A stretch of 64,000 bases of DNA from Eledone cirrhosa (Eukaryota). A model generated the notes under the pieces. The model made no database searches, was not told where the DNA came from, and saw only the letters and a program-made list of their open reading frames with translations. The stretch covers positions 86,552,001 through 86,616,000 of the forward strand of contig OZ024743.1 in the NCBI GenBank assembly GCA_964016885.1. Direction: 5' to 3'. Of this stretch, positions 609 to 64,000 are shown piece after piece (within the stretch, counting starts at the first letter, position 1; every line of letters begins with the position of its first letter). The position numbers and the translations under genes are program-made.

Positions 609-800
609 AACGAAGGAATTGTGGTAAGGAACCAGATGGACCATAACGCACCAGAGTACTCAATACTTAGGGTAGTAGAGTAGGTAATAGGAAAAAGAAT
701 GACCCCAACGGCAGAGCACAAGCCGTTTCGACGGCTATTTCTGGACTCCAGAAATAGCCATCGAAACGGCTTGAGCTCTGCCGTCGAGGTCATTTTTTTT
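609..800 (-). mobile_element. Penelope-like pseudo-LTR fragment (family A) with inverted duplication and hammerhead 3' half
   Basis: Near-identical to 59683-59823. Arms about 692-745 and 747-800 are inverted about base 746. Flanked by (TA)n-rich sequence. Confidence 0.75.
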
Positions 801-2057: not shown

Positions 2058-2060
<3 letters not shown>

Positions 2061-2224
2061 CGAGTAGGACCCCGACGGCTGAGCTCAAGCCGTTTCGACG
2101 GCTAATTCTGGACTTGTACTCAGCCGTCGGGGTCCTACTCGTTCCTATTACCCACTCTACTACCCTAAGTATTGAGTACTTTGGTGCGTTATGGTCCACC
2201 TGGTTCCTTACCACATTTCCTTCG

Positions 2225-2227
<3 letters not shown>
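2058..2227 (+). mobile_element. Penelope-like pseudo-LTR fragment (family A) with inverted partial copy
   Basis: 2058-2113 is the inverted arm (minus strand gtcGAAAcggcttgagctcagccgTCggggt). 2119-2227 is the forward tail. Embedded in (TA)n. Confidence 0.75.
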
Positions 2228-28200: not shown

Positions 28201-28412
28201 TGCATAATTCTCTGTTGCACACATCTAATTCCCCTTATAGCCTCATTTTCCTGTCAACTCATCCATGTACACTGTTCAGATGAAATAATCAATAGCCTGG
28301 TTATGTTGATCACATGTTCTTGTGTCCCTATCAACTGTTATCTGTGCTACGAACAGAAACCCAACAATTTGTAATTTAATGTCTATATTTTCTTCTGTAA
28401 AGGACCCAGGGT

Positions 28413-29669: not shown

Positions 29670-29736
<67 letters not shown>

Positions 29737-32610: not shown

Positions 32611-32693
<83 letters not shown>

Positions 32694-32951
32694 GTATACG
32701 TGGTGAATTGGCGGAGTTGTTAGAATGTTAGATATTTGCAGCTTTCTGAGTTCAAATCCTGCCAAAATCAACTTTGCCTTTCATCCTTTCAAGGTTGATA
32801 AAAAAAAGTACCAGTCTTGTACTGGGGGAGTCTCCCTCTATATCACTTTCTTATTCTCTCTTTCCTCTCTGGAAGAAATTGGCTGTGTTCAGGTAGATGG
32901 ACTCTGCTAGGTTCAAAATGCTCAAGATATGCCATATGTCATGACCATGTC

Positions 32952-38900: not shown

Positions 38901-39104
38901 ACAGTCAGCATCACAACAATCATAGATTTACCCATTGGTCAGTTATCAATCACAGGCTTGCCTATTGACCTTTTTATAGATTTGCCCATTTCCAATTTAG
39001 TTGGTCAGTTCGGCTCATAAGTTTTCCCATTATAGCCCAATCATAGTTTAGCCAATTAACTATTTTATTGTTCTGTACTATACCAAACATAAGAGTACCC
39101 ATTG

Positions 39105-39139
<35 letters not shown>

Positions 39140-42100: not shown

Positions 42101-43025
42101 AGCAGTAGTATAGGTTGCTGTGAAAGCATAATAGCCAGAATAAGAATGAGGAGGGGTTTGGAAAAAAATTGAGAGAGCTACAACTTCTGTTGAAAGATTT
42201 TCTCTCTGGTGGTAGTGGTAATGGTGATGGTAGTGTTGTTGGTATAAGTGGGCAGTTAAAGAATTCACTGAAATAAATAAACATAGGTGCAGTCATTGCT
42301 ATGTGATTAAGGATTTCACTTAAAATTCTCAATTTTGGGTTCAGTCCCGTTTTGGCATCTTGGGCAAGTTTTTTTTTAATTACAGTTTTAGGTTGTGGGT
42401 GAAATATAGTAGACTGGAACTGCGTTTAAGACTGTCACACATATTTACCAGGATGACAGGAAAACTATTTTCTATAGTCTAGCTGCTCTCAAATTACTCT
42501 CAACAAGGGCTGGTGTGAACACATATGTAAGGTGACCATACTAGGAGTCCTGACAAAATGTATATTTGTAATGGAGCTGATGCACTTAGAGATGTCCTGG
42601 CCAAATTAGGTTTATGCAGCGTGCAATCTGTTAGCTACAATGGCAGGATAAGTGTAGTTATGCCTGCCAAGTTAATATATATATGTGTGTGTGGTGTATA
42701 TATATATAGTTGTGTGTGTGTGGTGTATTATAAAACTGGTGGATTGGTATGAAAAGGGTTAAAGAATTTTAGGGGATTTATTAAAATTATTTCATTACTA
42801 AGATTGTAACTTAGCATATGGTTTTTATATAAAATTATGTTGGAAGATCTTACTTTAAACAGTACCCCTTTAGAACGGGTCTTGTTTCATTGAACCATAG
42901 CCTCTTTTAGGTGATTGGTATTAAAAGGGTTAATGTTTCTTTTAGCTTAAATCCTGCTGAGGTTGATAAAATAAGTAACAATTAATCTAATATCAGTGTT
43001 AAGTGCAGATATGCCTGCCAAATTA

Positions 43026-43092
<67 letters not shown>

Positions 43093-45966
43093 GTGTGTGT
43101 GTGTGGTCTATATATATATACATACACGTGTGTGTGGTCTATATATATATATATGTGTGTGTGTGTATTATAAAGCTGGTGGATTAGTATCAAAAGGGTT
43201 AAAAAGTTACAGGCATATATACATAAATAAATATACAGACACATCAAATAAGATTGTGGTTGATGTTTGCGATAACAACGTAAGTTAAGGGAGCTCTTTC
43301 TATTGGTGTACTTATTTCTAGGATATTACTGAGTTGCTGTAATCTAATCAGTTATAGGTTAACGAGGAGAGTGTGTGTGAGGGATTAGGTGAGTGAGAGT
43401 GAGAGAGGAGCAAGGGGAAAGTGTGGGTGAAAGAGAGGGTCAAGGAGAATGTGTACAAGAAGAGGCATATGGAGTGTGTATGTATATATATGTGTAGATG
43501 TATGTATATATATATTTATATCTGTGTGGTGGTTGTGAGAGTGTATATATATATACATATATATATATGTGTATATGTGGGGTATATATAAATATATATG
43601 TGTCTGTGTGGTAGTTGACCAAATTTCTGAAGAGGAAACAAAGTTCAAGCTATCAGTAGAGAGAAAAGTTCAAAAGAGATTAATGTTAGGTGAAACAGAA
43701 CATATTGATAGTTGTTAATACTTGAACTGATTACTAAGGTGATGGTTAATCAATAGATCAGTAAAGGGTGGCTAATCAATAATTATTTGGGGTGGTTGAT
43801 CAATGGTTAATTGATCAGTGGTTAACTGATCAGTTCTAGTCCTGTAGAAACCATTTCTATATTAAACTTGATGTTTACACTCTACTACTGTATTGAGTAC
43901 CTTACTAACTGTGGTTACCTCTGATTGAACCCGGGACTCACACACACACACACACATATATATATATGTGTGTGTGTGTGTGAGTATTTCACATCAGTTA
44001 AGCTACATGTATGTTGCATCTAATTTCATATATTTTGTATGTGTATTTTTTTGGCATTCCCTTCTTATCTAATGTCGTTGCATCACATTCATCTCTTCAC
44101 TTTCAGTTTATTACAGAACGGATGTTGGAATTTGCAATGATTTCAATATAGAAATGCATTTAAAAAATATATTAATGAAAATTATTGTGTACACTGCTCA
44201 AGTGCACTACAACTCATCAAAGGTGCATGTATAGTACATAGAATAATATACAAATGTTAGGAAAGTGAACAGTGTATGAGTCCTGATATACACACATATA
44301 CATGCATACGTGTGTATGGAGGGGGAAATATCAGGTGTAGTGTTGGCGAATTTCGGGAAGCATGGAAGTTTAAAATTAAAGAAGTATGAAATCTTGTGTC
44401 TTTTCTATCAGTCCCCCATCACAATAGCTCACTGTTTTATTTTTATTTTGCTTGTTAAATGTAAATAAACCATAAGTGACATCCAATCCAATGCAGAGCC
44501 TTCTCACTTCTGTTAGAGGGACCCCTTTCTGGTGGCCTTCCACCACTTCTGTTTGGTTTTAGTTGTCAGGTGTGTAGCCATACTCACCACACTTGGTTTT
44601 GTCTCTTCACAATTTTTTTAATAATACATATTTTACTGAAAATAATTTTCAGAGAGGTAGATTACGATTATCTTGATAGAAATAGTTTTTTGTTGCTCAC
44701 AATTCCCAGTTGTTAAAAATTTAATTTTATCCTGATCAATATTATCCTTTAGCAATATAAAACTTGAAGGTATCATCATTATCATCATTGATTTTGCATG
44801 CGTTTTTCCATGCTTGCATGGGTTGGATGGATTTTTCTCAGCACAGCATCTCTCCACTTGTCATGTTCCTTTGTCGTCTCCTCTGTGGGTCTTAGCGATT
44901 TAAGATTGACTCTCACAACCTCTGCCTATGTCTTTCTTGGTCTGCATCTACTGTAGCTTCCTTCCACTGAGATATCCTCGCATTTCTTCACCCAGCGGTC
45001 ACGATGAACAAATTTTCAAGCTTACATTTAGCTATTTTTCATATGAATTTTTTCAGCATAGTTATGATCTATACCTTCATATGCAGTATTAAGAAAGTTA
45101 TAAGGAAACAAATTCAGAGTGGTGGGGGCTTATATTGTAGTTATGTTTTATAGGTTCTGTAAGGTAACCAATACATTTAAAATCACTTGCAGAAATTGTC
45201 TTCTGTTTCAATTAAATGCAAGACAGGAATTTTGAAAATGGGTCAGATGAGTTGCTAACACACAAATTCCAAGGTGACTACTTTAATTTAATGTTGGTCT
45301 TTGTACAATAATCAGAGATTTGTTGAAATGTAGTTAGATTAGATTGTTATTAAATGTTTAAAATCTATTGAATCTGAATTTTATGCATATTCATTTTATA
45401 AAATTATAGTTTTAAGCCAGATAATATTGATGAGATAGGAATTGCCACACATATACTGTATATATATATATATGTATATGTACATCAGTATGTTGTGTGT
45501 GTATGTCATTCTCTCTCTCTTTATATATATATATAAGAGTGGGCAAAGACAGGAAAATAAATGAATACAGACAGTCCTATCTCATCAGTTGATTGCTAGA
45601 GATATGTTGTTTTAGTGCTTTAAGATTGATACAACTGGCACTAGTGCACAAGGGACAAATGGACAAAGGCCCCAGTCTACTCTGTAAAGTGGTCATTTTG
45701 GTGCCATGATAGAAAGTGTCCAGCCCACACTGTAAAGTCGTTGTGTAGGTGTCACAACAAAAATCAGCCAGTACACACTGTCAATGTGGTTGGCATTGGG
45801 AAGGGCATCCAGCCATAGAAACTAAGCTAGAAACAGTTCTGTATAAGCAAGACATTTTCACTTGATCTGACTTGTTTCAAATGGAACGACTTGTCTAACC
45901 TGTGCTAGCATGGAAAATAGACATTAAATGATTATGAAGATGATGATGATGATATATACATGTGTG

Positions 45967-46063
<97 letters not shown>

Positions 46064-46321
46064 GTATACGTGGTGAATTGGCGGAGTTGTTAGAATGTTA
46101 GATATTTGCAGCTTTCTGAGTTCAAATCCTGCCAAAATCAACTTTGCCTTTCATCCTTTCAAGGTTGATAAAAAAAAGTACCAGTCTTGTACTGGGGGAG
46201 TCTCCCTCTATATCACTTTCTTATTCTCTCTTTCCTCTCTGGAAGAAATTGGCTGTGTTCAGGTAGATGGACTCTGCTAGGTTCAAAATGCTCAAGATAT
46301 GCCATATGTCATGACCATGTC
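32952..46321. repeat. Tandem segmental repeat, copy 2 (13370 bp, with RTE)
   Basis: Junction atgaccatgtc|agtggtttgtc at 32951/32952 and again at 46321/46322. Confidence 0.95.
33140..36469 (+). mobile_element. RTE-clade LINE, near full length, frameshifted, with internal deletion of the RT core
   Basis: APE endonuclease motifs (GTINVGTL, CIQETRW, AYAP, AGDLNGH, QIDYIL, SQHSLV), WWWN, LLYADD, RWYGHV, 3' UTR and (GAT)n tail. Absent from copy 1 at 23355/23356. Confidence 0.95.
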
Positions 46322-49300
46322 AGTGGTTTGTCAAAAAGTGATGGATAAAGTATCAGACTTGAAGAAAACATATAGAGGTCAATAGGAACATCTTTGAGGC
46401 AACGCCCCAGTATGGTCACAGCCTAATGATTGAAGTCAGTTAAAGAATATGTATGGATTTAGTGTGCTCAACAATTAATTATCTGGAGGCTATCAATATG
46501 TGAAGACATGGACCCTTCCTAAAAACTAACCTTAACTTTGTAAACACTGTTCCTTCTCTCATACCTGATCGCAAGTATAAAACAAATCTTGCTGGTTCCC
46601 AAGGACAGAATTTATCTATCTAAATTATCTTACAGGCGATCTGTTGATTTTGAGAATGTAAGCAAATTACTTGTCTTTCTATTATCTGTAGTCTTCCCAA
46701 TGAGCAGTGTTTTAAACTCCTAGTTATGCCAGTCTAAAATTCAAATTACCTGTTTGTTTCTCTCGGATTTTCAATTAATATTTTACATGTTTTTAATAAT
46801 TTGTCTCATTCTGTTGGACCCTTCCTAAAAACTAACTTGCTTCTAAAGTTACCCATTTCCCGCCCTCCCACCCCCACACACCACCATTGGTATACGGTCC
46901 AATCATAACTCAGCGGCTTTAGTAAGTTCCCTAACAAATCAGTATAGCAAAGCTACCGCCCCGGTTACTACTCCTTAAGTTTAGACCTGTTTGATGGGTT
47001 GACTGCGGAGATTTGGAAAGTCTAAGCACTCAATGACAATGTCACAGATAAAGATAAATTCATTACCCGCTGCAGGACGAGAATGCAAAGACCCCTCTCT
47101 ATTTCTGACACGAATGACCAACATAATTCCGTCTCCTATACCCCTCTCTGCCCCTCCAACCCATCCATCCCACCCTCCCAACTTCAGAGTTGGTACCATA
47201 AATGTAGGCACATTGAAACGTCGCTCAAATGAGGTTGTAGAGATGCGTAAAGAAGTTGATGTTTGTTGTATTCAAGAGACTAGGTGGAGAGGGGGTCTGC
47301 CAGATTCATCGTGGGTAAAAAACGATGCTATAAACTTTTCTGGGTGGGAAATGACAACGGACAGGGTGGTGTAGGAATTATGTTAGCAGAAAAATGGGTA
47401 GATAAGGTAATTGACGTAAATAGAGTAAATGACAGAATAATTAAAATAAGGCTAGTTCTAAATAGAACTACTGTGACAATAACATCCGCTTATGCACCCA
47501 ATCTGGTCTCCCTGACGTTATAAAGGACAGGTCTATGAGACGCTAATGCACACTAACTCCCAAATAACTGACAGCGACTACTTAATTATTGCTGGCGATC
47601 TAAACGGCCACGTTGGACAACATAGTGATGGCTATAATGGAATCCATGGAGGCTATGGGGTTGGAAATAGAAATGAGGGCTTTAGAATCCTGGAATTCTG
47701 TGACGCCAATAACCTAACTATCTGTAACACAAACTTCAAAAAACGTGAAAACCACTTGATCACCTATAGATCAGGGGAACACGCCAGCCAGATAGATTAT
47801 ATCCTTACTAGAAGACAGGACAAAGTGTCTGTTGTAAACACTAAATCCCTCCCCCGTGAAGAATGCACTTCCCAACATAGCCTAGTAGTTAGTGACCTCA
47901 TAGTCAGTAATAGATGTACTCGACGACAGAGGAAGCTTATCTTGAGGAGAAGAATATGGAAGTTGAAGGACCCCATAGCCAGTGACAAATTTAAAAGCTT
48001 ATTACTAGATGCCTTTGACAATAAGGAAGAGCAATTAGAGACGTGCGATATAGAGGAACAGTGGCAATTATTGAAAGTGAACCTGCTAAAAGCAATGGAT
48101 GAAATCTGTGGCTGGAGCAGACCTATTGGCAGGAGGAGAGTAACTTGGTGGTGGAACAGTAAGGTAGAAGAGACAATCAAGGCCAAAAAGCAGGCTAGGA
48201 AAGTATGGCAGGATGGGGGAAGTAGAGAGTACTATGTGGCCAAAAGTAGAGAGCACTATAGTGGCCAGGAGAGAAGCTAGGAGACAAGTGTACCTTGCAA
48301 AAAGGGTAGCAGAGGAAAGAAAGTTCAATCATGTTCTACAACGTGAGGTGTTCAGGATTGCTAGACAATGTGTCAAGAAAAACCGTGATATTGTCGGGGA
48401 GAAGTGTGTCTGTAATGATAACGGTGTACTTGCCCTCACTGATGCTGATAAGAAGATAGCCTGGAAGTGTCACTTCCCATGGGAACTCCTATACGCAGAT
48501 GATCTAACGCTCATAGCTGAATCAATGGCTGTACTAGAGAAGAAATTCCAAATATGGAAGAATGGCCTAGAATCAAAAGGCCTTAAAGTTAACTTGTCCT
48601 AGTTTGTAGAAAGGAAAATAAGGCACAGGTACCCTCAGGGAAATGGCCATGCTCAGTGTGTAGGAAAGGAGTAGGTAGAAATTCAATTTTATGTCCCAAA
48701 TGCAAAGAATGGGTACATAAAAGATGTAGTGAGATCACAGGTAAACTATCTAAGAACGTAGACTTTATATGTGGCCGATGCTCAGGTGCAATAGGTAGCA
48801 GGTGTCCACAGGATACTAGCTCCTTCTATTGCCCAGATGGTTCTATAGAAATAGTAGACACTTTCCGTTACCTGGGTGACAAAATCAGCAGTGGTGGTGG
48901 GTGTTCTGAAAGTACAGTAGCCAGAGGCAGAACGGGATGGAAAAAGTTCAGAGAGCTTACACCGCTGTTGGCCACAAAAGGTTTCTCTCTAAAAATGAAA
49001 GGTAGATTGTATGATACTTATATACGAACAACATTGCTACATGGCAGTGAGACATGGGCATTACGTGCAGAGGACCTGCGCAGACTGGAAAAGAATGAAG
49101 CATGCATGCTCCGTTGGATGTGTAATAGTAATATACGTGAACGGCAAAGCATAAATGAACTAAGTGAGAAATTAGGAATAAGAGGGATCAGATGCTTTTT
49201 ACTTGAGAGAAGACCACGTTGGTATGGCCACGTGATGCGCATGAAAGACGACAGCTGTATAAAAAAGTGCAGAGCGATCAAAATTGATGGTAGTTACGGA

Positions 49301-52300
49301 GTAGGTAGACCCAGAAAAACCTTGGACGATCTGATAAATTCCGACCATACAAACTTACACCTCTCTAAGACAATGTCACTGGACCGAGATCTTTGGCGCT
49401 ACGCAGTAATACAGAAGACCCGCCTTGCCTATGTACAAAGCGAAACCTACAGTCAGTAGGCACCTCTTAACCAAATATACACCCCAATCCACTACTACCC
49501 TATTCTCCCACTCCCACCAGCACCACCCTCTCTCTGTAAAGTTGGTAACACAACATCCAGTCCAAATAAATGAGATCGAGATCGTGTAGGTGTCACGAGA
49601 AAAAAACACAGTCCACGCTGTAATGTGACCATGTAGGTAACATGGTAAAAAATTCCCAGTTCCACACTGTAAATGTGGTTGGTGTTAGGAAGGGCAACCA
49701 GCTGTAGAAAACCTGCCAGATAGTCCTATATGAGAGAGACATGGTCACCCAACCAACCTTACCTCAAGTGGGACAACTCCCATCTAACCCAAGATAGCGT
49801 GGAAAATGGACGTTAAACGAAGATGATGATGATGCTGATTGTGTGATTTTTAGGCTCTGGAACATGGCAATTCTGTATATCCAAGCTCTCTTGTAGTCCC
49901 TGGTAGAGTGAACCTGTGAATTTATTACCATAATCATTTGGATTGCATTCTTTTTCTGTATCTATTCATCTTGGTTATTTAGGGCTCAACACTTTCATTA
50001 CCATATTTTTAATGGAAGACACTACTTCTGGTTTTCTAGTTATTTTGAAAATAATCAAGAATTTGGAGATATATAATTTTCTCATTATTGAAAGATGATG
50101 CAAATTTCTTACATAAAATTATGATTGTAGGTTTTTAGATAAGTATAAATAATTTAACCCTTTTGAATCTATAAGAATTTGAAGGGAGTTAGTAATATTA
50201 CTTTTTCATTATTAAGCTGGTGTTTGGAATATAACAGATTCTTACATTCAAATTATCCATAAATATAAACACCTTAGTATTGGAGAGTCAGGACAGATTT
50301 CAAGAAGTTTGGTATGAAAAGGGGGTCCATTTAGCTGCTAAATGGGTTAGGTGTGTAAAACATGGTAGGGAGATGTCTATTGTTGCAATGAGCACATCAA
50401 GTGACAGCATACAAGACAATTTCACAAGCTGATACTAGTCTCATTTTAACCCTTTTCATACTAACCCATCTGAAACCACCCAGGTTTTATACAAAACTGT
50501 CCATTTTAAACTGTCTATACTTATAATAAAACCTTTCATTAAGTTTTTGTTAAATAATGTTTCAAATATTAGTTTACCAATGAAAAAAATATTTCACTAA
50601 ATCCTCAAAATCTTTATTTCAACTTAATTGAAACACATTTGCAGTATACTTCATGAGAAGTTCGGTAATAATAGGGTTGACGAAGGTCTTGATCTGGAAG
50701 ATGTCTTCAGTGATTTGTTTTAAACAATTTGATGATATTGATCTAACTTATCTGTGTTTCATTATCCTAGATCAGTGGTTCTCAACCTTTTTTTTTACCT
50801 ATAGATCTCTTTGATTCCTATTTTACCCTGGTGGATCCCCCTATTCCTGTCTAAGTCCCATGGGAAAATAAACTTATAATCGTGCGTGACTTCACCACCA
50901 CCACTGATTATGGAATTTTTTTACCAATTGCTTTGGTTAGCCATTTTATAATGTGTACTTTCTCTAAGGCCTAAGATATTTTCTTTGAAAGCAAAATTTT
51001 TTCATGGACCCTTAATATGGAATGTGTCTTCGTTAAAGAATTGCTTTTATGGATATGGGCTGCCCTGTCAGTAGCTTTTTTTGAGAATATTTTCTTCTGG
51101 AAACTACAAAGAGCTGCCATTCCAGTAACCTTGGTGTCCAATTAGTTTGGTCTTATGTTATGAATATTTTATGTCAACTATATTTTACAGACATGTTATA
51201 CAATGATGGTAATAATAAGAAAAAAAGATAAAAACAAAATTAACAAATGTAAAAAGGGGGAAGGGGTAAAGAAGGGCAAATCTAGCTGAATGGAAAGGAC
51301 TATAAATGCCATAAATGAGAAGAAAAGGAGGGAAAGAGCAAGGACTATTAGGCCACAGAAGAAATATAGGGGAGAGGTGACAGACTACACTTAGGTCGGG
51401 TCAGTGTTTTGGGTGCAGACAATGGCCAGTGTACCCACTGCAACAACCACCGCACCCTGCAGGGCTGCTTACGTTCCTATTTTACAGAGGAGCTCGGCAG
51501 TACGGGACACGAGAGCACCTGAGGTCTCAATGGCGACCTATCTAACTTGCTTCTCTTGTCTCATTGGATTCTTTATCTTCCCAGTGAGGTTACATGCCTA
51601 ACTGACATGTGGACATTTCATGGTTGACTGACTGTCACATCTCACCTGACTAGTGAATGTAATAGGTTACATGCCTCACTGACATGTGGACACTTCATGG
51701 TTGTCTGACTGTCACTTCTCACCTGACTAGTGAATGTAATAGGTTACATGCCTCACTGACATGTGGACATTTCATGGTTGACTGACTGTCACTTCTCACC
51801 TGACTAGTGAATGTAATAGGTTACATGCCTCACTGACATGTGGACATTTCATGGTTGACTGACTGTCACTTCTCACCTGACTAGTGAATGTAATAGGTTA
51901 CATGCCTCACTGACATGTGGACATTTCATGGTTGACTGACTGTCACTTCTCACCTGACTAGTGAATGTAATAGGTTACATGCCTCACTGACATGTGGACA
52001 CTTCATGGTTGACTGACTGTCACTTCTCAAATCATATATTTGCCCATTGATAAATTTACTGGTTAATACGACATCATGTGTGCCCATAAATATTTTTGAT
52101 GGTCCATACTACAGCAATCAAAGGTTTGCCCATTTAATGGTCAGTACTACAACAAATAGGTTTGCCCATAGACAGTTTTCATGGTCAGTACAGCACTAAT
52201 AGTAGGTTTAGCCGTTGACAGTTTTTATAGTCTACTACATTAATCATAGTTTTGCCCATTCACAGTTTTGACAGTCAGCATCACAACAATCATAGATTTA

Positions 52301-52474
52301 CCCATTGGTCAGTTATCAATCACAGGCTTGCCTATTGACCTTTTTATAGATTTGCCCATTTCCAATTTAGTTGGTCAGTTCGGCTCATAAGTTTTCCCAT
52401 TATAGCCCAATCATAGTTTAGCCAATTAACTATTTTATTGTTCTGTACTATACCAAACATAAGAGTACCCATTG

Positions 52475-52507
<33 letters not shown>

Positions 52508-55500
52508 AAGTGAGTTAGTTTCACAACAAATTTGCAAACCATATTCGAGGACGCATGTTTCACCGGAGAGATTTTCAACCTGTGTATGGCTGCAGTGAGA
52601 ACGGGAGTACAGTGAAATTGTGTTATAACGAAATTCATGGGTATAAACAAATTTGTTGTAATGTAAAATTCTTTATAATGAGATCAACTGAAACAAATAG
52701 TGTTTGTTACCTCGAGGATTGAAAAAATTTTGTTAATGGAATTTTACCTATATATATATATACCCAAAAGTTATGGAATAGTTTGGAAACCTGAAATGAT
52801 CAAAGTACTGGTACTAGTACTATATTTTGTGTTAAACCTTTGGAAGTTTTATTAACCTATTTATATTTTTACTTCTATTCCAAAATTCTTGTACTGGTTT
52901 CAGTCATTAGACTGTAGCCATGTTGGGGCACTGTCTGTGAGAGCTTTTAGTCAATCACATCAACCCCAGTACTTGCTACCATCTGCTACTTATTTTATCA
53001 ATATCTGTTTATAGATTTGTTAAAAGCCAGCCCTGGTCAAAACCATGACCAGTCCATCATTTGTATATCTAAGTCCAAACTACAATGTATCCTTCCTTTT
53101 TTAAGATGGTAGAATGGAATTTGATAGAGAGTTGGCCATCCTTTCTAGCAGATGGTGGTAAATTGGCATTTATTAGAACTTTAATATTTATTCCAGCTCT
53201 CTTCACTCCAAGGTCAACACTGCCTCTCATCCTTTTGGGATTGATAAATAAAGTATCAATCCTGGGGAAATAGATTTGATAAAATTGTTAAGGAGCTTTG
53301 TGATATCTGATCCAGCTCTTAGCATTCTGGGTTCAAATCGTATCTCCTGCTAAAAGTTGCGACTGCAGATGGTATCATTGTTGAAAAACTAGCTGCTTTC
53401 CTTTCCTTTTTCAGTGACTGTAGAGGCTTCCCTTATTGGCTTGAGCTTGTTTCTCTTTTCTAACTATGTGTATTTATATTATCTAAAGTATCTTCCAAGT
53501 TCAGTTAAATGTTTTACAATGTAGACTTTCTCTTTCTTTTGCAGCCAATCATAAGAATTCCAACTGAAGATTCTACCAGAAGACTGATATCCAGTGCCAT
53601 ATGGATAAATGGAATAAAGGAAACTTGTTATGTAGCTCTAAGGAATAGTAACTCTGATATTAGATTAGTGCAATCTCTCAGATAGCAGATGGAGAGCTAA
53701 TTAATCATTTTGTGACCATATTTCTAATGAAGAATTTTGAGAGATTTACTGAAATTATTAATTATTTCATTACTAAGATAGTAGCGTTATGATTCTTTTA
53801 TAAAAAAATTGTTGGAAGATTTTAATTTAAATTAGGTGGCTTTGTTTCATAGAACCATAGCCTCTTTTATTTGAGTTGATCTCAAAAGGGTTTATGTTTT
53901 TCTAGTTTAAATCCTCCTGAGGTTGGTAAAATAAGTAATAATTAATCTAATATCAGTGTTAATCAGAGGTGAGAAATGATGCTAGATGCTGTTACAGAAT
54001 CATGAGAAATTTGACAGGAGCAAGAAGCAGTTCATATATGCCAGTTAAGGGTGATTAGATGTTGGTAAGAGTAAGGTATCAGCCAAGTGGCTGCAACATT
54101 CCCAGGAAGTGCTCGATTGGCTGGATCCAGTTGACCTCTTTGACTTGCCTATGGATAAAATGGCAAATGTGTTACTGTAGAGAACAGCCAGTGATACCTG
54201 CTGCATCGATCATTCTACTACACAGGGCTCTTTCCTTAAGCAAAATGCCCTTTTTTGGAGGTGAGGCAAACTACAACTTTAATTAGGTGGTATATATCAG
54301 CTATACTCTGTGGACAAGATGGTGAAAGTGTTGCCATAGAGAACAGCCAACAATACCTGCTGCATCTGCCATTTGACCTTAAAGGGCTCCTACCTCAGGC
54401 TAGATGCCCTCCCAATTTGGGAGTGGGGCAGACACGAAACCTTTGGTTGGATTGTAATATCTCAGCTGTGACATTCTTTTCTTGGATATAATGCCCCCCT
54501 GATTTATCTGAGGAAAACAGCATTACAGAGACAGAAGACAAAGTTCTAATGGTATAAAAAAATTTTCAAAGTCTAATTTCAAGAATGGATTTAATATAAA
54601 TAAGGTGAGTATGTAGGGCAGAAGAAAGGGTTAGGTTACTGACTGATTTAATCAGATATTGACAGCTGTGTCATGTGTCATTATAATTATCATAAAACAT
54701 CTATTTTTCCATACTTGCACAAGTTGGTTAGGTATGTTCAGGCACAGCCTCCTTCAACTCATCACATTCGTTTGTCATCTCTGAGGTTCCACATTTTCAG
54801 ATCAGCTCTTAACACTTCCCAGATTTTCCTTAGTCTTCCTCTTCTGGCTCTACCTTCTACTGGGAACTCTTGGTAATTCTTCTTCAGTCAATGATCATCC
54901 AAACACACCACATGTCCATACCATTGCATAATTCTCTGTTGCACACATCTAATTCCCCTTATAGCCTCATTTTCCTGTCAACTCATCCATGTACACTGTT
55001 CAGATGAAATAATCAATAGCCTGGTTATGTTGATCACATGTTCTTGTGTCCCTATCAACTGTTATCTGTGCTACGAACAGAAACCCAACAATTTGTAATT
55101 TAATGTCTATATTTTCTTCTGTAAAGGACCCAGGGTCAGGGTTTGGATTTAAACCTTGGAGAGGCCCCTCATACACAAAACAAGAATACATAGCAAACCC
55201 CCCAATTTTACATATCAAAGTTAGCTTGACACAAGTAATTGGAATTGAAAAGTTATACATACAGGTATTAAATTAACAAATTTTAACAATCCTAAAACTA
55301 AAAGCCCAGCTGAAGGTACAAATAAATTGCTATGGCAGTTGCTGATGGGGCTCCCCACTACAGGGAGCCCAGGACAATTGCCCCCATTAAATCCGGCCTT
55401 GCCCAGAGGGTGGAATTATTCAGGGTTTCATAATAGTTGATAGCTTCTCTTAGCTAAGTGACATAATTAGCAGTAGTATAGGTTGCTGTGAAAGCATAAT

Positions 55501-56455
55501 AGCCAGAATAAGAATGAGGAGGGGTTTGGAAAAAAATTGAGAGAGCTACAACTTCTGTTGAAAGATTTTCTCTCTGGTGGTAGTGGTAATGGTGATGGTA
55601 GTGTTGTTGGTATAAGTGGGCAGTTAAAGAATTCACTGAAATAAATAAACATAGGTGCAGTCATTGCTATGTGGTTAAGGATTTCACTTAAAATTCTCAA
55701 TTTTGGGTTCAGTCCCATTTTGGCATCTTGGGCAAGTGTATTTTTTATTACAGTTTTAGGTTGTGAGTGAAATATAGTAGACTGGAACTGCGTTTAAGAC
55801 TGTCACACATTATATTTACCAGGATGACAGGAAAACTATTTTCTATAGTCTAGCTGCTCTCAAATTACTCTCAACAAGGGCTGGTGTGAACACATATGTA
55901 AGGTGACCATACTAGGAGTGCTGACAAAATGTATATTTGTAATGGAGCTGATGCACTTAGAGATGTCCTGGCCAAATTAGGTTTATGCAGCGTGCAATCT
56001 GTTAGCTACAATGGCAGTATAAGTATAGATATGCCTCCCAAGTTAATATATATGTATATATATATGTGTGTGTGTGTGTGGTGTATATATATATATATAT
56101 GCGTGTGTGGTGTATTATAAAACTAGTGGATTGGTATCAAAAGGGTTAATAAAGAATTTTAGGGGATTTATTAAAATTATTTTATTACTAAGATTGTAAC
56201 TTAGCATATGGTTTTTATATAAAATTATGTTGGAAGATCTTACTTTAAACAGTACCCCTTTAGAACGGGTCTTGTTTCATTGAACCATAGCCTCTTTTAG
56301 GTGATTGGTATTAAAAGGGTTAATGTTTTTTTAGCTTAAATCCTGATGAGGTTGATAAAATAAGTAACAATTAATCTAAAATCAGTGTTAAGTGCAGATA
56401 TGCCTGCCAAATTAATATATATATATATGTGTGTGTGTGTGGTGTATATATATAT
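46322..56455. repeat. Tandem segmental repeat, copy 3 (with RTE; similarity ends at about 56455)
   Basis: Offset about 13370 bp from copy 2. Interrupted in a (TA)/(TG) tract by the inverted-repeat element. Confidence 0.95.
46510..49839 (+). mobile_element. Duplicate of the deleted RTE LINE
   Basis: Same ORF translations and lesions as 33140-36469, offset by 13370 bp. Confidence 0.95.
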
Positions 56456-57600
56456 TAGTTTTGCGAGGTTTTTGATATGAAATCGTGTGTCGAAACAAAT
56501 ATTGTTATACTTGGGGAGGGTCATATTTGTGTAATAATATTGCCAGAATTAATAACAGAACACACTCACTGTTTGGTTGGTTTTCGCTTCTGTGTCCTTT
56601 ATATCGGTTAATTTAATTCATTCGGTCCTCAATGTTATCATTGACTGATCAACGGTCAAAAATACAGATACAATATAGACACAAACACATATATATATAT
56701 AGTCTAACAAAGTTCTTTTGTTGCACATCTGCAACATCCTTAGTGGTGCTATTATGTTTCCTCTCGTTGCATCTTTATTTAGTCTGTTTATTTATTTATT
56801 TATTTGTTTATTTCTTCTCTGCACATGCATTTGCGTGTGTGTATAGTGTTTTTGATGCGTGTTCGTGTTTGGGTGACTGTGTATTGGTTATTATATTCTA
56901 TCTTAGTTTACTAGTGTGTGTTTATATGTGTTTGTTGTTATTGTGCTTGTGTATGTATTTATTTATTTATTTATTTATACTTCTCTTAGGTCAGTGTTGT
57001 TTGTTTGGGTGTTGTTATTCCATTCATTTTTCTGTATAGAACTTAGAAGGCCAAGGCTAAACAGAAAAATGAATGGAATAACAACAACACCCAAACAAAC
57101 AACACTGACCTAAGAGAAGTATAAATAAATAAATAAATACATACACAAGCACAATAACAACAAACACATATAAACACACACTAGTAAACTAAGATAATAA
57201 CCAATACACAGTCACCCAAACACGAACACACATCAAACAAAACACTATACACACACGCAAATGCATGCGCAGAGAAGAAATAAACAAATAAATAAATAAA
57301 TAAACAGACTAAATAAAGATGGCGCAGGCATACAATGCAACGGGCGGAAACATAATAGCACCACTGACGATGTTGCAAATGTACAACGAAAGAACTTTGT
57401 TAGACTATATGTATGTGTTTGTGTCTATATTATATCTGTATTTTTGACCGTTGGTCAGTCAATGGTAACATTGAGGACCGAATGAATTAAATTAACCGAT
57501 ATAAAGGACACAGAAGCGAAAACCAATGAAACAGTGTGTTCTGTTATTAATTCTGGGAATATTATTACACAAATATGACCCTCCCCAAGTATAACAATAT
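56456..57600. repeat. Large inverted-repeat element (arms 56499-57035 and 57061-57600, 25-nt spacer)
   Basis: The arms are imperfect reverse complements. A fragment of the same family lies at about 3237-3306. Confidence 0.9.
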
Positions 57601-57606
57601 ATATAT

Positions 57607-59633
57607 ATGAAGGATATGAAGACGGGTAAGGCGGCTGGGCCTTCGGAAATAGTTGCTGAGATGCTGAAGGCATCTGGCACGGTGGGACACACCATGGTCA
57701 CCCGCATAGTTAACCAAGTCGTACAGAATGGGGTTGTTCCGAAGGACTGGCATAGCAGCATCATCGTTAACTGTTATAAGGGTAAAGGAGACGCCCTAGA
57801 TAGGAGTAACTATAGAGGCATTAAATTAATCGACCAGGTCATGAAGGTCACGGAAAAAGTAATAGCGCAACTAATCAGAGAGAGAATTGACCTAGATGAA
57901 ATGCAGTTCGGGTTTGTGTCAGGCAAAAGTACCACAGACGCTCTTTTCATAGTACGACAACTACAGGAGAAGTACCTAGCTAAAGGTAAACCCCTCTACT
58001 TAGCTTTTGTCGACTTGGAGAAAGCCTTCGACAGAGTCCCCCGCTCCATTATCTGGTGGGCTCTTAGAAAACTAGGCGTTGACGAATGGCTTGTGAGGGC
58101 TATACAAGCCATGTATAAAGAAACAGTCAGCAAGGTTAGAATTAACAACGAATATAGTGAAGAGTTTAGCGTAAAAGTTGGCGTCCATCAGGGCTCTGTT
58201 CTCAGCCCACTACTATTTATTATTGCCCTTCAGGCTATAACAGAGGAGTTCAAGACAGGCTGCCCATGGGAACTCCTATACGCAGACGACCTGACACTCA
58301 TAGCGGAATCAATGGCCGAGCTAGAGAAGAAATTCCAAACATGGAAGCACGGCCTAGAGTCAAAAGGACTTAAAATTAACCTGGCTAAGACCAAAGTACT
58401 AGTTTGTAGGAAAGAAAACAAGGCGGCGGTCCCTTCTGGGAAATGGTCGTGCTCGGTGTGTAGGAAAGGCGTAGGTAGAAACTCCATTTTATGTCCTAAA
58501 TGCAAAGTATGGGTGCATAAAAGATGTAGTGGGATCACAGGTAAGCTAACTAAGAACATAGATTTTACATGTGGCCGGTGCTCTGGTGCAATAAGTAGCA
58601 GCAAGTGCCCACAAACTACTAGCTCTTTCAATTGCGCAGAGGGTTCTATAGAAATAGTGGACAGCTTCCGTTACCTGGGCGATAAAATCAGCAGTGGGGG
58701 AGGGTGCTCTGAAAGTACTGTAGCTAGAGTCAGAACTGGTTGGAAAAAGTTCAGAGAGCTTATACCACTATTAGCTGCTAAAGGGTTCTCACTAAAAATG
58801 AAAGGCAGGTTGTACGATGCCTGCATACGAACAGCAATGCTGCACGGCAGTGAGACCTGGGCATTGTGTGCAGAGGATATACGCAGACTAGAGAGGAACG
58901 AAGCTTGCATGCTCCGCTGGATGTGTAACAGTAATATACGTGAACGGCAAAGCATAAACGAACTAAGGAAAAAATTAGAGATAAGAGGGATCAGATGTTG
59001 TTTACTCGAGAGAAGGCTACGTTGGTATGGACACGTGATGCGCATGAAAGTCGATAGCTGTATAACAAAGTGCAGGGCAATAAAGATAGACGGTAGTCAC
59101 AGAATAGGCAGACCTAGGAAAACCTGGGACGAGCTGATAAACTCCGACATCACACACTTACACCTCTCCAAGACAATGTCACTGGACCGAGACCTTTGGC
59201 GGTACTCAGTAACATAGAAGACCCGCCTTACCTAAATATATAGTAAAACCTACTCCAGCCAGTAGGCATCTCTAACAAAATACACCCCGTCCCACCACCC
59301 CCGCCCCCACCCCATCCACACCACCCCGTTCTATGTAAAGTTATGTTGGTGCCGCGCCATCGAGGCCGAAACAAATGAGATCGTGTAGGTGTCACGACAA
59401 AAAAACACACAGTCCACGCTGTAATGTGGCCGTGTAGGCAACACGGTAAAAACCTCCCAGACCCACACTGTAAATGTGGTTGGTGTTAGGAAGGGCATCC
59501 AACTGTAGAAAACCTGCCAGACAGTCCTATGCGAGCAAGACAATCACTCTTGCCTCAAGTGGGACTACCCCCGTCCAAACCCATGCAAGCGTGGAACACG
59601 GACGTTAAACGTTGATGATGATGATGATGATGA

Positions 59634-59637
<4 letters not shown>
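57607..59637 (+). mobile_element. 5'-truncated RTE LINE with an uninterrupted RT ORF (57607-59217)
   Basis: 536 aa with KAAGP, NYRGI, QFGF, FVDLEKAFD, GVHQGSVLSP, YADD, a PHD-like insert, FRYLG and LRWYGHV. A premature TAG lies near the C-terminus. 3' UTR, (GAT)n tail and (TA)n on both sides. Confidence 0.97.
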
Positions 59638-59682
<45 letters not shown>

Positions 59683-59686
<4 letters not shown>

Positions 59687-60933
59687 AACAAAGGAATTGT
59701 GGTAAGGAACCAGATGGACATAACGCACCAGAGTACTCAATACTTAGGGTAGTAGAGTGGGAAATAGGAAAAAGTATGACCCCGACGGCAGAGCTCAAGC
59801 CGGTTCGACGGCTATTTCTGGACTAAATTAGAATTTTTAGCCTGATGAAAAAATAGCCGAACTTGTCAAGGGGGTACTTCCTTATATGGGAAGATTGTAG
59901 TTGTCAAGAGGATTGGTTAAAATTTGTTGTAAACACAAAAATGTCTATCATGGCATTTGGTGGGAGGTAGGGTTGGCTGAACTTGCCTGAGTGGAGTCGG
60001 TCAAGTTGAAAGTGATATGTATACAGCAGATTCTAAGGGTAGTGTATGAAATAGAGGAGGGAGGTTATAGAAAGGTAATTCGAATGAGAGTAGGAGACAA
60101 TAAAAGATAATAGAAATAAAAAAATATATATATAGTGAGAAATGAATAAAAAAAATCCCAATGCTATCTTACAAATACAGGTTAATAAGTTTAGAATAGA
60201 AAAACATTGTAGAAATGGAGTAGTAACAAAACTGATACAAAATTAAAGGGGTCTAACACATCTGCTATAAGTAGTTAGTAAAACATATTTGGCCAAATCT
60301 ATCTTAAAAATACAGGAGTGGGGGAACTGATGCTACAGAGGCCTGATGGGCTGCATTGGGGTAGGCGAAAGGGGAAAAGCAGACGAGGAAGAAAATAGGG
60401 GGTGGAAGGAAGTGATAGGATGAGACAGGGGGAAGAAGAAGATATAGAGGAAAAGAAAAAAGATACATCTACCTATGTAAGCTGGGGTTTCCCCAAACTT
60501 ATTCGGCAAGTGGGGGGGTATCAGCCCTTGTCTACCCACCCGGGTCGTTATGTGGTGTGAGGGCGAGGTAAGTCCTACTCAATCTGTGTTTGCATGCGGT
60601 TACCAGTTTGTCTTTCTTGTTTAGGAGTTGGTCCTTCAAAAACAGCATTTGTAATGTTTCCTCCGAGCATAAGTTACATGGACGGCGTCCTCCCGTGTAA
60701 GAGTTAGCTCTGGACAGTAAGCTCCAAGTGAGATTGTAGGTTATATTATTATCTTGGAGGTCCCAGATGTGGCCCGAAAGTGTAGTGGCATGTCGCCGGA
60801 CCGGGTTTCAGAAAGTATGTCAGTGTTGGTAGAGCCGGGTCTTGAAGTCATACGCGGTTAATCCTATATAAGCTTTGCACTGGTAGATCACGTTACGTTC
60901 TCGGCATTTGTTGTTGAGGGGGCACGTAGATCT
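59683..60933 (-). mobile_element. Penelope-like element 3' end: decayed GIY-YIG endonuclease plus pseudo-LTR
   Basis: Minus-strand 60933-60532 reads CPLNNKCRERNVIYQCKAYIGLTAYDFKTRLYQH*HTF*...TTLSGHIWDLQ...LTWSLLSRANSY...CNLCSEE..., then after a frameshift LLNKKDKLVTACKH. A non-coding segment with a hammerhead follows, ending at (TA)n. Confidence 0.85.
59779..59875 (-). ncRNA. Degenerate type I hammerhead ribozyme
   Basis: Stem I ACCCC/GGGGT; core cttgacaa (canonical CUGANGA); stem II cggctattt/aaatagccg; GAA(c), which is GAAA in the copies near 730 and 2095; stem III cggc/gccg around gagctc; GUC triplet. Confidence 0.7.
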
Positions 60934-61092
60934 ATCATCATCTCACAAAACATCATCTCCTCAAACAACAAAGAGGCATATGGCGTGTGTATGTATGTAT
61001 ATAAGTGTATATGTATGTATACAAGTGTGTATATGTATGTATATAAATGTGTATATGTATATATATATATTTATATGTGTGTGGTATTTATA

Positions 61093-61431
61093 GGTGCATG
61101 GCTTAGTGGTTAGAGCATTGGCCTTGCAATCGAAATGTTGTGAGTTCAATTCTCAGACCGGGTGATGTGTTGTTTCCTTGAGCAAGACACTTTATTTCAT
61201 ATTGCTCCAGTTTACTCAGCTGTAGAAATGAGATGATAGGGACTGGGGTCCATATTCCACTGCAGAGTGGACGTGTAGGCGCCACGGAAAAAAAGCACCC
61301 AGCACTCACTGTAAATGAGGTTGGTGTTAGGAAGGGCATCCAGCTGTAGAAATCAAGCCAGAATCGGTTACCATCCCACCCTTGCAAGCAGGGAAAAAGC
61401 GGACGTAAAATGATGATGATGATGATGATGA
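61093..61431 (+). mobile_element. Full-length tRNA-derived SINE with RTE tail
   Basis: Highly similar to 8158-8503, with A and B boxes and a (GAT)n tail. Confidence 0.9.
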
Positions 61432-61494
61432 TTGGTGGTTGTGAGAGAGTGTATATATGTATATATATATATGTGTGTATGTATGTGTATATAT

Positions 61495-64000
61495 ATCATC
61501 ATCATCATCGTTTAACGTCCATGTTCCACGCTTGCATGGGTTTGGACGGGAGTTTTCCCACTTGAGGCAAGAGTGGTTGTCTTGCTCGCATAGGACTGTC
61601 TGGCGGGTTTTCTACAGCTGGATGCCCTTCCTAACACCAACCACATTTACAATGTGGGACTGGAAGGTTTTTACCGTGTTGCCTACACGGCCACATTACA
61701 GCGTGGACTGTGTGTTTTTTTTGTCGTGACACCTACACGATCTCATTTGTTTCGGCCTGGATGTTGTGGCACCAACATAACTTTACATTGAAAGGGGCGG
61801 TGTGGATGGGGTGGTGGTGGTGGTGGTGGTGGTGGTGGGGGGGGGGTTGTTAGAGATGCCTACTGACTGTAGTAGGTTTTACTTTGTATTCAGGTAAGGC
61901 GGGTCTTCTCTATTACTGAGTACCGCCAAAGATCTCGGTCCAGTGACATTGACTTGGAGAGGTGTAAGTGTGTGAGGTCGGAATTTATCAAGTCGTCCCA
62001 GGTTTTTCTGGGTCTGCCTACTCCGTGGCAACCCTCTATCTTTATTGCCCTGCACTTTTTTATACAGCTGTCGTCTTTCATGTGCATCACGTGTCCATAC
62101 CAACGTAGCCTTCTCTCGAGTAAACAACATCTGATCCCTCTTATCTCTAATTTTTTCCTTAGTTCGTTTATGCTTTGCCGTTCACGTATATTACTATTAC
62201 ACATCCAGCGGAGCATGCAAGCTTCGTTCCTCTCTAGTCTGCGTATATCCTCTGCACACAATGCCCAGGTCTCACTGCCATGCAACATTGCTGTTCGTAT
62301 GCAGGCATCATACAGCCTGCCTTTCATTTTTAGGGAGAACCCTTTAGCGGCTAATAGTGGTATAAGCTCTCTGAACTTTTTCCATCCAGTTCTGACTCTA
62401 GCTACTGTACTTTCAGAGCACCCTCCCCCACTGCTGATTTTGTCATCCAGGTAACGGAAGCTGTCCACTATTTCTATAGAACCCTCTGCGCAATTGAAAG
62501 AGCTAGTATTTTGTGGGCACTTACTGGTACTTATTGCACCAGAGCACCGGCCACATGTAAAATCTATGTTCTTAGTTAGCTTACCTGTGATCCCACTACA
62601 TCTTTTATGCACCCATACTTTGCATTTGGGACATAAAATGGAGTTTCTACCTACACTTTTCCTACACACTGAGCATGGCCATTTCCCGGAAGGGACCGGC
62701 GCCTTATTTTCTTTCCTACAAACTAGAACTTTAGTCTTAGCCAGGTTAATTTTAAGGCCTTTTGATTCTAGGCCGTGCTTCCATGTTTGGAATTTCTTCT
62801 CTAGCTCGGCCATTGATTCAGCTATGAGCATTAGATCATCTGTGTATAGGAGTTCCCATGGGCAGCCGGTCTTGAACTGCACTGTTATAGCCTGGAGGTC
62901 AATAATAAATAGTAGGGCGCTAAGAACAGAGCCCTGATGAACACCAACTTTTACACTAAACTCTTCACTATAGTCGTTGTTAATTCTAACCTTGCTGACT
63001 GTTTCTTTATACATGGCTTGTATAGCTCTCACAAGCCATTCGTCAACACCTAGTTTTCTAAGAGCCCACCAGATAATGGAACGGGGGACTCTGTCGAAGG
63101 CTTTCTCCAAGTCAACAAAAGCTAAGTATAGGGGATTACTTTTAGCTAGGTACTTCTCCTGTAGTTGTTGTACAATGAAAAGAGCGTCTGTGGTACTTTT
63201 GCCTGACACAAAACCGAACTGCATTTCATCTAGATCAATTCTCTCTCTGATTAGTTGCGCTATTACTTTTTGCGTGACCTTCATGACCTGGTCGATTAAT
63301 TTAATGCCTCTATAGTTACTCCTATCTAGGGCATCTCCTTTACCCTTTTAACAGTTAATGATGATGCTGCTATGCCAGTCCTTCAGAACAACCCCATTCT
63401 GTATGACTTGGTTTACTATCCGGGTGACCATGGTGTGTCACCGTTCCAGAGGCTTTCAGCATCTCAGCAACTATTTCCGAAGGCCCAGCCGCCTTACCCA
63501 TCTTCATATCTTTGATTGCCTTACTTATTATACTACCTTCGACTAACACTGCCGGTCCCTCTATTGGGTCGATGTGGGGGAGACTGTCTTTCTCCCATTT
63601 ATTCTCCTCATTTAGAAGCCTTTCGTAGTGACACTTCCAAGCTACCTTCTTATCAGCGTCAGTGATGGCAAGTACGCCATCATCATTAAGTCCACACTTC
63701 TCCCCGACAATATCATGGTTTTCCTTGACACATTGCCTAGCAATCCTGAACACCTCACGTTTTTGGTCCTCACGTTGTAGAACATGCTTGAACTTTCTTT
63801 CCTCTGCTTCCCTTCTTGCGAAGTACACTTGTCTCCTAGCTTCCCTCCTGGCCACTTGATAGTCTTCTCTACTTCCCCCATCCCGCCATACTTTCCAAGC
63901 CTGCTTTTTGGCCTTAATTGACTCCTCCACCTTACTGTTCCACCACCATGTTACTCTCCTCCTACCTACAGGCCTGCTCCAGCCACAGACCTTGTCTGCC
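61495..64000 (-). mobile_element. RTE LINE, minus strand, continuing beyond the window
   Basis: ORFs at 63370-63930 and 61890-63284 are split by a frameshift near 63440. YADD has become YTDD. (ATC)n tail at 61495. Confidence 0.97.

What the first reader, a model, noticed from the sequence alone, without database searches (positions are those of the whole stretch)
59683..60933. Hidden Naiad-type Penelope-like element: GIY-YIG endonuclease followed by a hammerhead-bearing pseudo-LTR
Seen: a stop-interrupted minus-strand frame absent from the ORF track, with CPL..KC, VIY..YIG, FK.R..H, T.LS.HIW.L, C.LC.EE, LLNK and C.H motifs. About 650 nt downstream is a segment with three pairing stems and a GUC triplet. 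The sister copies at 609-800 and 2058-2227 restore the mutated GAAA, so the inferred consensus is ACCCC-CTGACGA-stem II-GAAA-CGGC(ttgagctcw)GCCG-TC-GGGGT. Established: Penelope-like elements have a GIY-YIG endonuclease and hammerheads in their pLTRs. Inference: the C-terminal Cys/His pattern points to the Naiad group. This hammerhead has a real stem III with a self-complementary loop and a long stem II loop, unlike the minimal PLE hammerheads. The two TGA codons are best read as CGA decay, not selenocysteine.
Basis: partly seen in the sequence, partly recalled or inferred. Interest (0 to 1): 0.8.

Follow-up and report, generated by a model that had tools for sequence, protein, structure and literature searches.

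The report
Jumping gene with self-cutting RNA footprints
This is a dead end-piece of a very abundant, likely still active animal jumping gene (a Hydra-type Penelope element), and tiny copies elsewhere in the genome that stop exactly at its hammerhead ribozyme's predicted cut site suggest that the RNA really cuts itself in the animal, which has been an open question for these elements.

Summary
Observation real, labels partly wrong. Window 60940-59685 (-) is a decayed, 5'-truncated end of a Penelope-like element: GIY-YIG fragment, 3' UTR, type I hammerhead, tail, (TA)n. Young kin in the same genome carry an intact 717-aa RT + C-terminal GIY-YIG ORF in 3.53-kb units. The clade is Hydra (DKT, CxCx5C, no CCHH, CxxC/CxH, TA target), not Naiad; the TGAs are CGA decay. 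The core box is UUGANAA (U3-A8; 4,668 exact genome hits), not CUGACGA (CUGANGA: 8); 1,438 copies carry a C3·A8 mismatch. The window's ribozyme has lost GAAA. Most interesting: 416 mini-insertions join two copies head to head near the cut site; in 18 of the first 50 both arms stop exactly at +1 with untemplated letters between, the likely trace of reverse transcription running off self-cleaved RNA. All 64 scored head-to-head insertions have one long and one short end (two priming sites). One locus is a 299-bp retrozyme-like array. Against: no covariation above shuffles, no Rfam hit, no RNA data, weaker signal in the window's subfamily (5 of 32).

The parts
60532..60940 (-). 3' end of the ORF: GIY-YIG endonuclease domain, 5'-truncated at about 60940, two TGA stops (60822-60820, 60810-60808), an 8-codon deletion against intact kin, stop codon at 60534-60532
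   Evidence: intact kin P0002; fold of the kin domain
59882..60531 (-). 3' untranslated region (non-coding part of the pseudo-LTR), about 90% alike to same-subfamily copies, mostly not alignable with the youngest subfamily
59767..59881 (-). type I hammerhead fold: two-part stem I, core box UUGACAA (59869-59863, U3-A8), long stem II with distal hairpin, GAAC for GAAA (59806-59803, predicted dead in this copy), 4-5 bp stem III with a GAGCUC palindrome in the loop, GUC
59783..59784 (-). predicted self-cleavage site (after C at 59784); mini-insertions elsewhere in the genome begin exactly at the next base
59685..59766 (-). tail between the two 3' ends of the family (about +17 and +97 from the cut site); this copy ends at the far one
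59636..59684 (.). (TA)n target microsatellite
609..800 (.). head-to-head mini-insertion of the same family, joined in loop II; one long and one short arm; lacks the first core box
2058..2227 (.). head-to-head mini-insertion of another subfamily; short arm to loop II, long arm from loop III; lacks the first core box

Best explanation
The stretch is a dead, 5'-truncated copy of a Hydra-clade Penelope-like retrotransposon whose likely still active relatives encode one RT + GIY-YIG protein and a hammerhead ribozyme that likely cuts the element's RNA in vivo. Mechanism, step by step. (1, shown) The full unit is about 3.53 kb: 5' leader, 717-aa ORF, long 3' UTR, hammerhead, tail; insertions lie in (TA)n. 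(2, inferred from the fold and from PAc biochemistry in PMC11167929) The endonuclease cuts both strands of a TA repeat. (3, shown as a pattern, mechanism inferred) Two cDNAs are primed, one on each target end, one at +17 and one at +97 past the cut site, both at UAU-like words that could pair with the target; their 3' ends are then joined head to head. (4, inferred) On uncut, longer-than-unit RNA the RT reads through the ribozyme and gives 5'-truncated copies such as this one, or unit-plus partial tandems; it very often stops in loop II, giving about 200-bp palindromes. (5, inferred) On RNA that the ribozyme has cut, both cDNAs run off at +1, gain untemplated letters and give about 125-bp dead palindromes. 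So cleavage happens but is partial, and it likely trims the transcript's 5' end rather than being needed for each insertion; the core tolerates U-A, C·A and U·G at positions 3/8, in line with a slow or protein-assisted ribozyme.
For: Intact ORFs and arrays. RT fold nearest telomerase RT (Foldseek rank 1 3du5, E 8.7e-9; VIA Z 15.9, rmsd 2.7 over 248, tied with a DGR RT at 15.8). Endonuclease fold: top four VIA rows are GIY-YIG nucleases, I-TevI Z 9.0, rmsd 2.4 over 88; Pfam GIY-YIG hits 8 of 28 aligned proteins weakly. Hydra motifs. Lowest-energy fold of the youngest copy is the hammerhead junction itself, and the constrained fold costs 0-1.5 kcal/mol in 5 of 7 copies. Position 7, the free core position, takes all four letters among subfamilies while U4, G5, A6, A9 and GAAA stay. 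U3-A8 core known from Schistosoma PLEs (PMC4209133). Cut-site trace: 416 loci, control 0; hand tally of the first 50: 18 with both arms at +1 and untemplated filler, 7 with one arm so, 6 blunt; 43 of 100 arms end unambiguously at +1 against at most 6 at any of +2, +3, +4, -1, -2; 11 of the first 50 in the wider search of 1,100; two read in full; one such joint also in contigs of a public run. One long plus one short end in 64 of 64 head-to-head insertions. Internal segments reaching +160 to +545 in short tandems show that the template goes on past the priming sites.
Against: No covariation above shuffled controls (87.7% paired, 194 of 500 shuffles as high). Folding z-scores are weak (-0.39 for the youngest copy; below -2 in only 2 of 7). 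No Rfam hammerhead hit. A successful subfamily of at least 1,438 copies has a C3·A8 mismatch that should slow cleavage. In the window's own subfamily only 5 of 32 mini-insertions have both arms at +1, and 3 have an arm reaching -1, so single T/A fillers there could be CpG decay. The 6 blunt joins also fit a CG microhomology and were not counted. The tallies are by hand on the first 50 loci of one chromosome. PAc ribozyme mutants still insert in vitro and no reads ended at its cut site (PMC11167929). Hydra membership rests on motifs and a by-eye look at published sequences, not on a tree with them.
Confidence: 0.78

Rival explanations
1. The element is a Hydra PLE, but the hammerhead is a folded relic that rarely or never cuts; the +1 stops come from RT stalling at the three-way junction or from a protein nuclease.
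For: C3·A8 mismatch lineage thrived and, on the tree, the young U3-A8 copies nest inside it; no covariation; most copies read straight through the site; an even stronger stop exists in loop II with no catalytic explanation (6,964 loci; about 15-fold step in summed contig depth).
Against: The stop is at the scissile bond to the base, not at the foot of stem III (-1/-2), and carries untemplated letters as at a template end; all other core letters are kept across subfamilies up to 18% apart.
Confidence: 0.17
2. The ribozyme cuts out unit-length RNA that is ligated to a circle, and rolling-circle reverse transcription makes the tandem arrays (model of PMC4209133). This could add to the best explanation rather than replace it.
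For: Arrays of up to 4 full units plus a partial one, units at most one base apart; a 299-bp unit repeated 7 times with the same two deletions, the partial first unit apparently included, found at one locus only; upstream partial units of any length.
Against: Arrays G, F and D show middle units that are chimeras of their neighbours, the mark of unequal crossing-over in DNA; array B's partial unit breaks the ABAB pattern expected of a dimer circle; two adjacent 299-bp units share a variant.
Confidence: 0.3
3. Naiad-type element, possibly with UGA read as selenocysteine.
For: (TA)n target and Cys/His motifs; Naiad remnants are reported from octopus genomes.
Against: Endonuclease is C-terminal, DKT not DKA, no CCHH, hammerhead present; TGA in only 3 of 32 and 4 of 32 close kin, CGA in most; intact kin have no TGA.
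Confidence: 0.02

Closest known systems
Hydra clade of Penelope-like elements, e.g. Hydra-1_Obim (Craig et al. 2021, PMC8557442)
   Same: Single ORF, RT then GIY-YIG; DKT; CxCx5C linker; no CCHH; CxxC and CxH at the end; (TA)n target; hammerhead in the 3' end. The displayed first 400 residues of Hydra-1_Obim look alike by eye (identity not computed).
   Different: Unit 3.53 kb against 'generally <3 kb'; thousands of copies with young intact ones; RWR for RWK; ribozyme with U3-A8 core, 5-6 bp stem III with a 7-9 nt palindromic loop and a stem II region of 54-56 nt, whereas all 26 Hydra rows listed in File S2 have CUGANGA cores, short stem III loops (1-3 nt) and loops II of at most 10 nt, and 22 of 23 hits in 80 related metagenome loci have C3-G8.
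Cercyon PLE minimal hammerheads of Schistosoma mansoni (Cervera and de la Pena 2014, PMC4209133)
   Same: U3-A8 core variant; bulge near the 5' end of stem II; G10.1-C11.1 pair; palindromic loop III region.
   Different: Those lack a stable helix III and need dimers; this one folds with a 5-6 bp helix III as a monomer in prediction.
PAc, Poseidon element of Anolis (Frangieh et al. 2024, PMC11167929)
   Same: Two internal RT start sites that bound the tail; AT-rich target; both strands extended.
   Different: Other clade; tail about 80 nt here against 30-40; their study found no reads at the cut site, here the genome holds insertions that start there.
Non-LTR retrozymes (bioRxiv 10.64898/2026.07.22.740005; review PMC7761336)
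   Same: The 299-bp x 7 array at G000:C2:356.03 Mb is a tandem of short non-coding units, each with a type I hammerhead, derived from a PLE end.
   Different: One locus only, near-identical to its parent element, so a birth event rather than a family; circular RNA not shown.

Membership tests
Penelope-like elements (EN+) | single ORF with telomerase-like RT and GIY-YIG endonuclease | tested here: met
   717-aa ORF; RT nearest TERT; GIY-YIG fold
Penelope-like elements (EN+) | partial tandem / inverted pLTR structure with an optional tail at one end | tested here: met
Hydra clade | C-terminal endonuclease without CCHH; CxCx5C linker; CxxC and CxH around E and N | tested here: met
   P0002 residues 572-580, 670-673, 698-700; 49, 68 and 64 of 83 related proteins, many partial
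Hydra clade | DKT in place of DKG; RWK-type N-terminal motif | tested here: met
   DKT and RWR in P0002; DKT/S in 60 and DKG in 3 of 83
Hydra clade | insertion into (TA)n; hammerhead present | tested here: met
Hydra clade | groups with Hydra families in an RT phylogeny | not tested
   reference proteins seen only as supplement text; no tree built with them
Naiad clade | N-terminal GIY-YIG linked to a C-terminal RT | tested here: not met
   RT residues about 110-480, endonuclease 572-700
Naiad clade | DKA motif, CCHH finger, no canonical hammerhead | tested here: not met
Type I hammerhead ribozyme | three helices around core boxes with 3-8 pair, GAAA and NUH | tested here: met
   met in young and window subfamilies with U3-A8; not met in the window copy itself (GAAC) and mismatched at 3-8 in 1,438 copies
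Type I hammerhead ribozyme | match to an Rfam hammerhead model | tested here: inconclusive
   no hit in the window at E<=5; intact young copies were not scanned
Type I hammerhead ribozyme | compensatory changes in stems | tested here: inconclusive
   2 of 30 pairs change on both sides, not above shuffles; 25 copies, 86% mean identity
Type I hammerhead ribozyme | site-specific self-cleavage | not testable with these tools
   indirect genomic trace only
Non-LTR retrozyme (299-bp array only) | tandem non-coding units each with a type I hammerhead | tested here: met
Non-LTR retrozyme (299-bp array only) | circular RNA, spread to many loci | tested here: inconclusive
   exact junction at one locus only; RNA not available

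The most novel reading that the evidence does not exclude
The genome records the whole replication cycle of a living Hydra-clade element: a monomer-competent hammerhead with a U3-A8 core cuts the RNA in the germ line, leaving well over a hundred insertions that start at the scissile bond; a protein dimer primes two cDNAs from two fixed sites in every inverted insertion; the ribozyme core passed through a C·A mismatch and was repaired to U-A while the element kept spreading; and a retrozyme has just been born from it by rolling-circle copying.
Probability: 0.45. Interest if true: 0.72.

Novelty: new variant of a known kind. Interest (0 to 1): 0.58.

Why it matters
Whether Penelope hammerheads cut in vivo was called 'still a mystery' in a 2020 review (PMC7761336), and the one biochemical study found no RNA ends at the site (PMC11167929). 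Insertions that begin at the scissile bond give a DNA-only read-out of cleavage that can be applied to any long-read genome, and here they come with an intact, young element of a clade known from some 27 consensus families. Natural 3/8 variants (U-A, C·A, U·G) in one lineage allow a direct test of how much ribozyme activity a retroelement needs. The window copy itself is ordinary debris.

Tried and rejected
Rfam scan of the window: no hammerhead. Pfam on the fragment and on the intact protein: nothing; PDB sequence searches with both alignments: nothing significant; Foldseek on the endonuclease model: best E 0.22, T4 EndoII. No RNA holder listed among public runs, so expression is untested. 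Covariation test: not above shuffles. Promoter start in loop II as the source of the short palindromes: 4 of 51 leader-bearing loci start at -60 to -30, the rest spread from -985 to +77, so not supported for full units. A second cut at the GUC in loop II: rejected, most arms extend past it by a variable 0-12 bases. Fold-back at the distal hairpin: the expected junction with the whole hairpin kept was not seen by eye among the first 50 loci. Dimer-circle origin of ABAB arrays: array B does not fit. Selenocysteine: rejected. Earlier findings of the scan: none. Lunse et al. 2017 on dimeric PLE hammerheads is not held; only its title was seen, and it may list similar motifs. I found no report of cut-site-terminated PLE insertions or of this family in seven full-text searches; the library lacks most subscription papers and Repbase/Dfam were not searched. 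Supplements of the bioRxiv retrozyme preprint were not seen.

Full report
OBSERVATION. About 660 nt past its stop lies a hammerhead-like fold (59881-59767), then a tail and a (TA)n tract. The element spans about 60940-59685 and is about 90% alike to same-subfamily copies over 1.3 kb. Pfam, Rfam and PDB sequence searches miss both parts, so the identification needed the relatives.

THE FAMILY. In the own genome (G000, 3.0 Gb) the fragment drew 58,823 first-look candidates, 150 scored, many with one identical score and open frames of 784 codons (candidates are not copy numbers). Fetched loci hold an intact 717-aa ORF in a 3.53-kb unit, alone, in partial tandems, or in arrays of up to four full units; 148 places keep the exact tail-to-leader junction of the youngest subfamily. 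Endonuclease DNA of 15 copies with the youngest core differs by a median 1.1%, of 26 copies of the window's subfamily by 4.7% (samples were picked by similarity). That the element is still active is inferred from this; no RNA run was listed. The predicted structure (pLDDT 89.8) matches telomerase RT first; the C-terminal domain folded alone matches I-TevI (Z 9.0, rmsd 2.4 over 88), T4 EndoII, UvrC and a fourth nuclease as its top four rows. 82 related proteins, mostly unnamed, one from Argonauta, share the layout at 34-54% identity.

CLADE. Craig et al. 2021 (PMC8557442; passages, section 11 and parts of the supplement read) define Naiads by an N-terminal endonuclease, DKA, CCHH and no canonical hammerhead, and Hydra by a C-terminal endonuclease without CCHH, DKT, RWK, CxCx5C, C-terminal CxxC and CxH, a hammerhead and (TA)n targets. 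P0002 meets every Hydra motif (RWR for RWK) and fails the Naiad ones. A Hydra family from an octopus is already listed there, with a different, canonical ribozyme. No tree with the reference set was built. The TGAs are CpG decay: CGA in 22 of 32 and 27 of 32 copies from the 30 closest loci.

RIBOZYME. In one fixed context the first core box reads UUGANAA 4,668 times, CUGANAA 1,438, UUGANGA 31 and CUGANGA 8 (exact matches, controls 0). Position 7 takes all four letters. The youngest copy folds into the hammerhead junction as its lowest-energy form, though no better than shuffles (z -0.39); the constrained fold costs 3.5 kcal/mol in a C·A copy and 10 in a decayed U·G copy. Stem pairs hold in 87.7% of cells but covariation is not above shuffles. 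On an unrooted tree of 34 endonuclease sequences the young U3-A8 copies nest, with starred support, inside C3·A8 copies, while the window's U3-A8 subfamily lies apart (bootstrap not fully settled). In 80 related metagenome loci my descriptor found 23 plus-strand hits in 21 loci, 22 with C3-G8. The window copy has GAAC for GAAA and is predicted dead.

TRACES OF THE CYCLE. (a) Two 3' ends, about +17 and +97 from the cut site, both running into (TA)n (62 and 90 of 240 ends at exactly these distances). All 64 head-to-head insertions with both ends scored have one of each. A tail at one end only is known (PMC3846280 passages; PMC8557442), and two start sites were shown in vitro for PAc (PMC11167929, parts 1-2 of 4 read); the strict pairing points to coordinated priming on both target ends. 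(b) 6,964 palindromes are joined in loop II, including the sister copy at window 609-800; summed contig depth steps up about 15-fold there. Why RT stops there is unexplained. (c) 1,100 palindromes are joined within 30 bases of the cut site; of the first 50, by hand, 21 join through stem III, 11 have both arms at +1 with untemplated filler, 2 are blunt, 16 other. With a tighter pattern (416 loci) the first 50 give 18 both-arm, 7 one-arm, 6 blunt, 11 of a GAC/GTC type (3 of them uncertain) and 8 other; 43 of 100 arms end unambiguously at +1, at most 6 at any neighbouring position. Two read in full are (TA)n, +103..+1 inverted, one letter, +1..+20, (TA)n. This is what run-off on a cleaved RNA would leave. 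In the window's subfamily the signal is weaker: 5 of 32 both-arm, 4 one-arm, 3 with an arm at -1. (d) Short tandems contain an inner segment reaching +160 to +545, so templates continue into the next unit. (e) One locus holds seven 299-bp units, each with a shortened hammerhead, ending in the family tail: a retrozyme-like array nearly identical to its parent, as the preprint 10.64898/2026.07.22.740005 would predict (parts 1 and 3 of 5 read). (f) Long arrays do not prove rolling circles: several have chimeric middle units, the mark of unequal crossing-over.

VERDICT. A real but dead fragment of a new, abundant Hydra-clade family with an unusual hammerhead. The element type, the U3-A8 core, the tail and the inverted structures each have precedent. 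What I did not find in print (seven searches; limited library; an octopus repeat survey, PMC13282606, passages only, mentions neither Hydra nor ribozymes in its main text) is genomic evidence that a PLE hammerhead cuts in vivo. That reading is likely (about 0.75), rests on hand tallies of partial lists, and is easy to test.

Noticed in passing
G000:C2:356029900-356032000 (L201): Seven 299-bp tandem units, each with a hammerhead lacking the distal stem II hairpin, the tail, the leader and the first codons of the ORF; near-identical to the young element; a retrozyme-like array at a single locus.
   Followed up: partly
G000, 6,964 loci (L086-L100; window 609-800): The commonest product of the family is a palindrome of about 200 bp joined in loop II of the ribozyme; the cause of the stop is unexplained.
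   Followed up: partly
G000:C1:437.19-437.22 Mb (L031-L033) and C1:91.47-91.49 Mb (L034-L036): Four-unit arrays in which variants alternate ABAB between units; the second has a 55-bp stutter repeated at least seven times at its 5' junction.
   Followed up: partly
window 57607-59635 (+) and 61449-63516 (-): Two copies of a LINE, 92.8% alike, face each other around the finding; the right one has an open RT-like frame of over 370 codons. The label RTE-type is recalled, not tested. Older copies at 35103-36469 and 48473-49839.
   Followed up: no
window 25104-43070 and 38448-56455: Tandem duplication with a period of about 13.3 kb at 99% identity; may be real or an assembly artefact.
   Followed up: no
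window 12555-14083: Minisatellite with a period of about 48 bases, related to pieces at 19256-19615 and to the LINE 3' end.
   Followed up: no
window 8165-8502 and 61097-61432: Short repeat, 94% alike between copies, with a weak tRNA-like start (Rfam 28 and 26.5 bits, below threshold); likely a SINE.
   Followed up: no
window 56499-57600, 16742-16934, 9894-10157: Self-inverted stretches of 0.2-1.1 kb; an N gap lies at 3810-4009.
   Followed up: no
L101-L180 (metagenome contigs); protein P0026: Hydra-type elements are common in marine metagenome contigs, 21 of 80 loci with a hammerhead-like hit; one such protein is filed under a gammaproteobacterial genome bin, likely animal DNA in the bin.
   Followed up: partly
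run X5 (organism B) laid on L031: A second organism's contigs carry pieces of the same family at up to 99-100% identity, which may mean a close relative or recent transfer.
   Followed up: no
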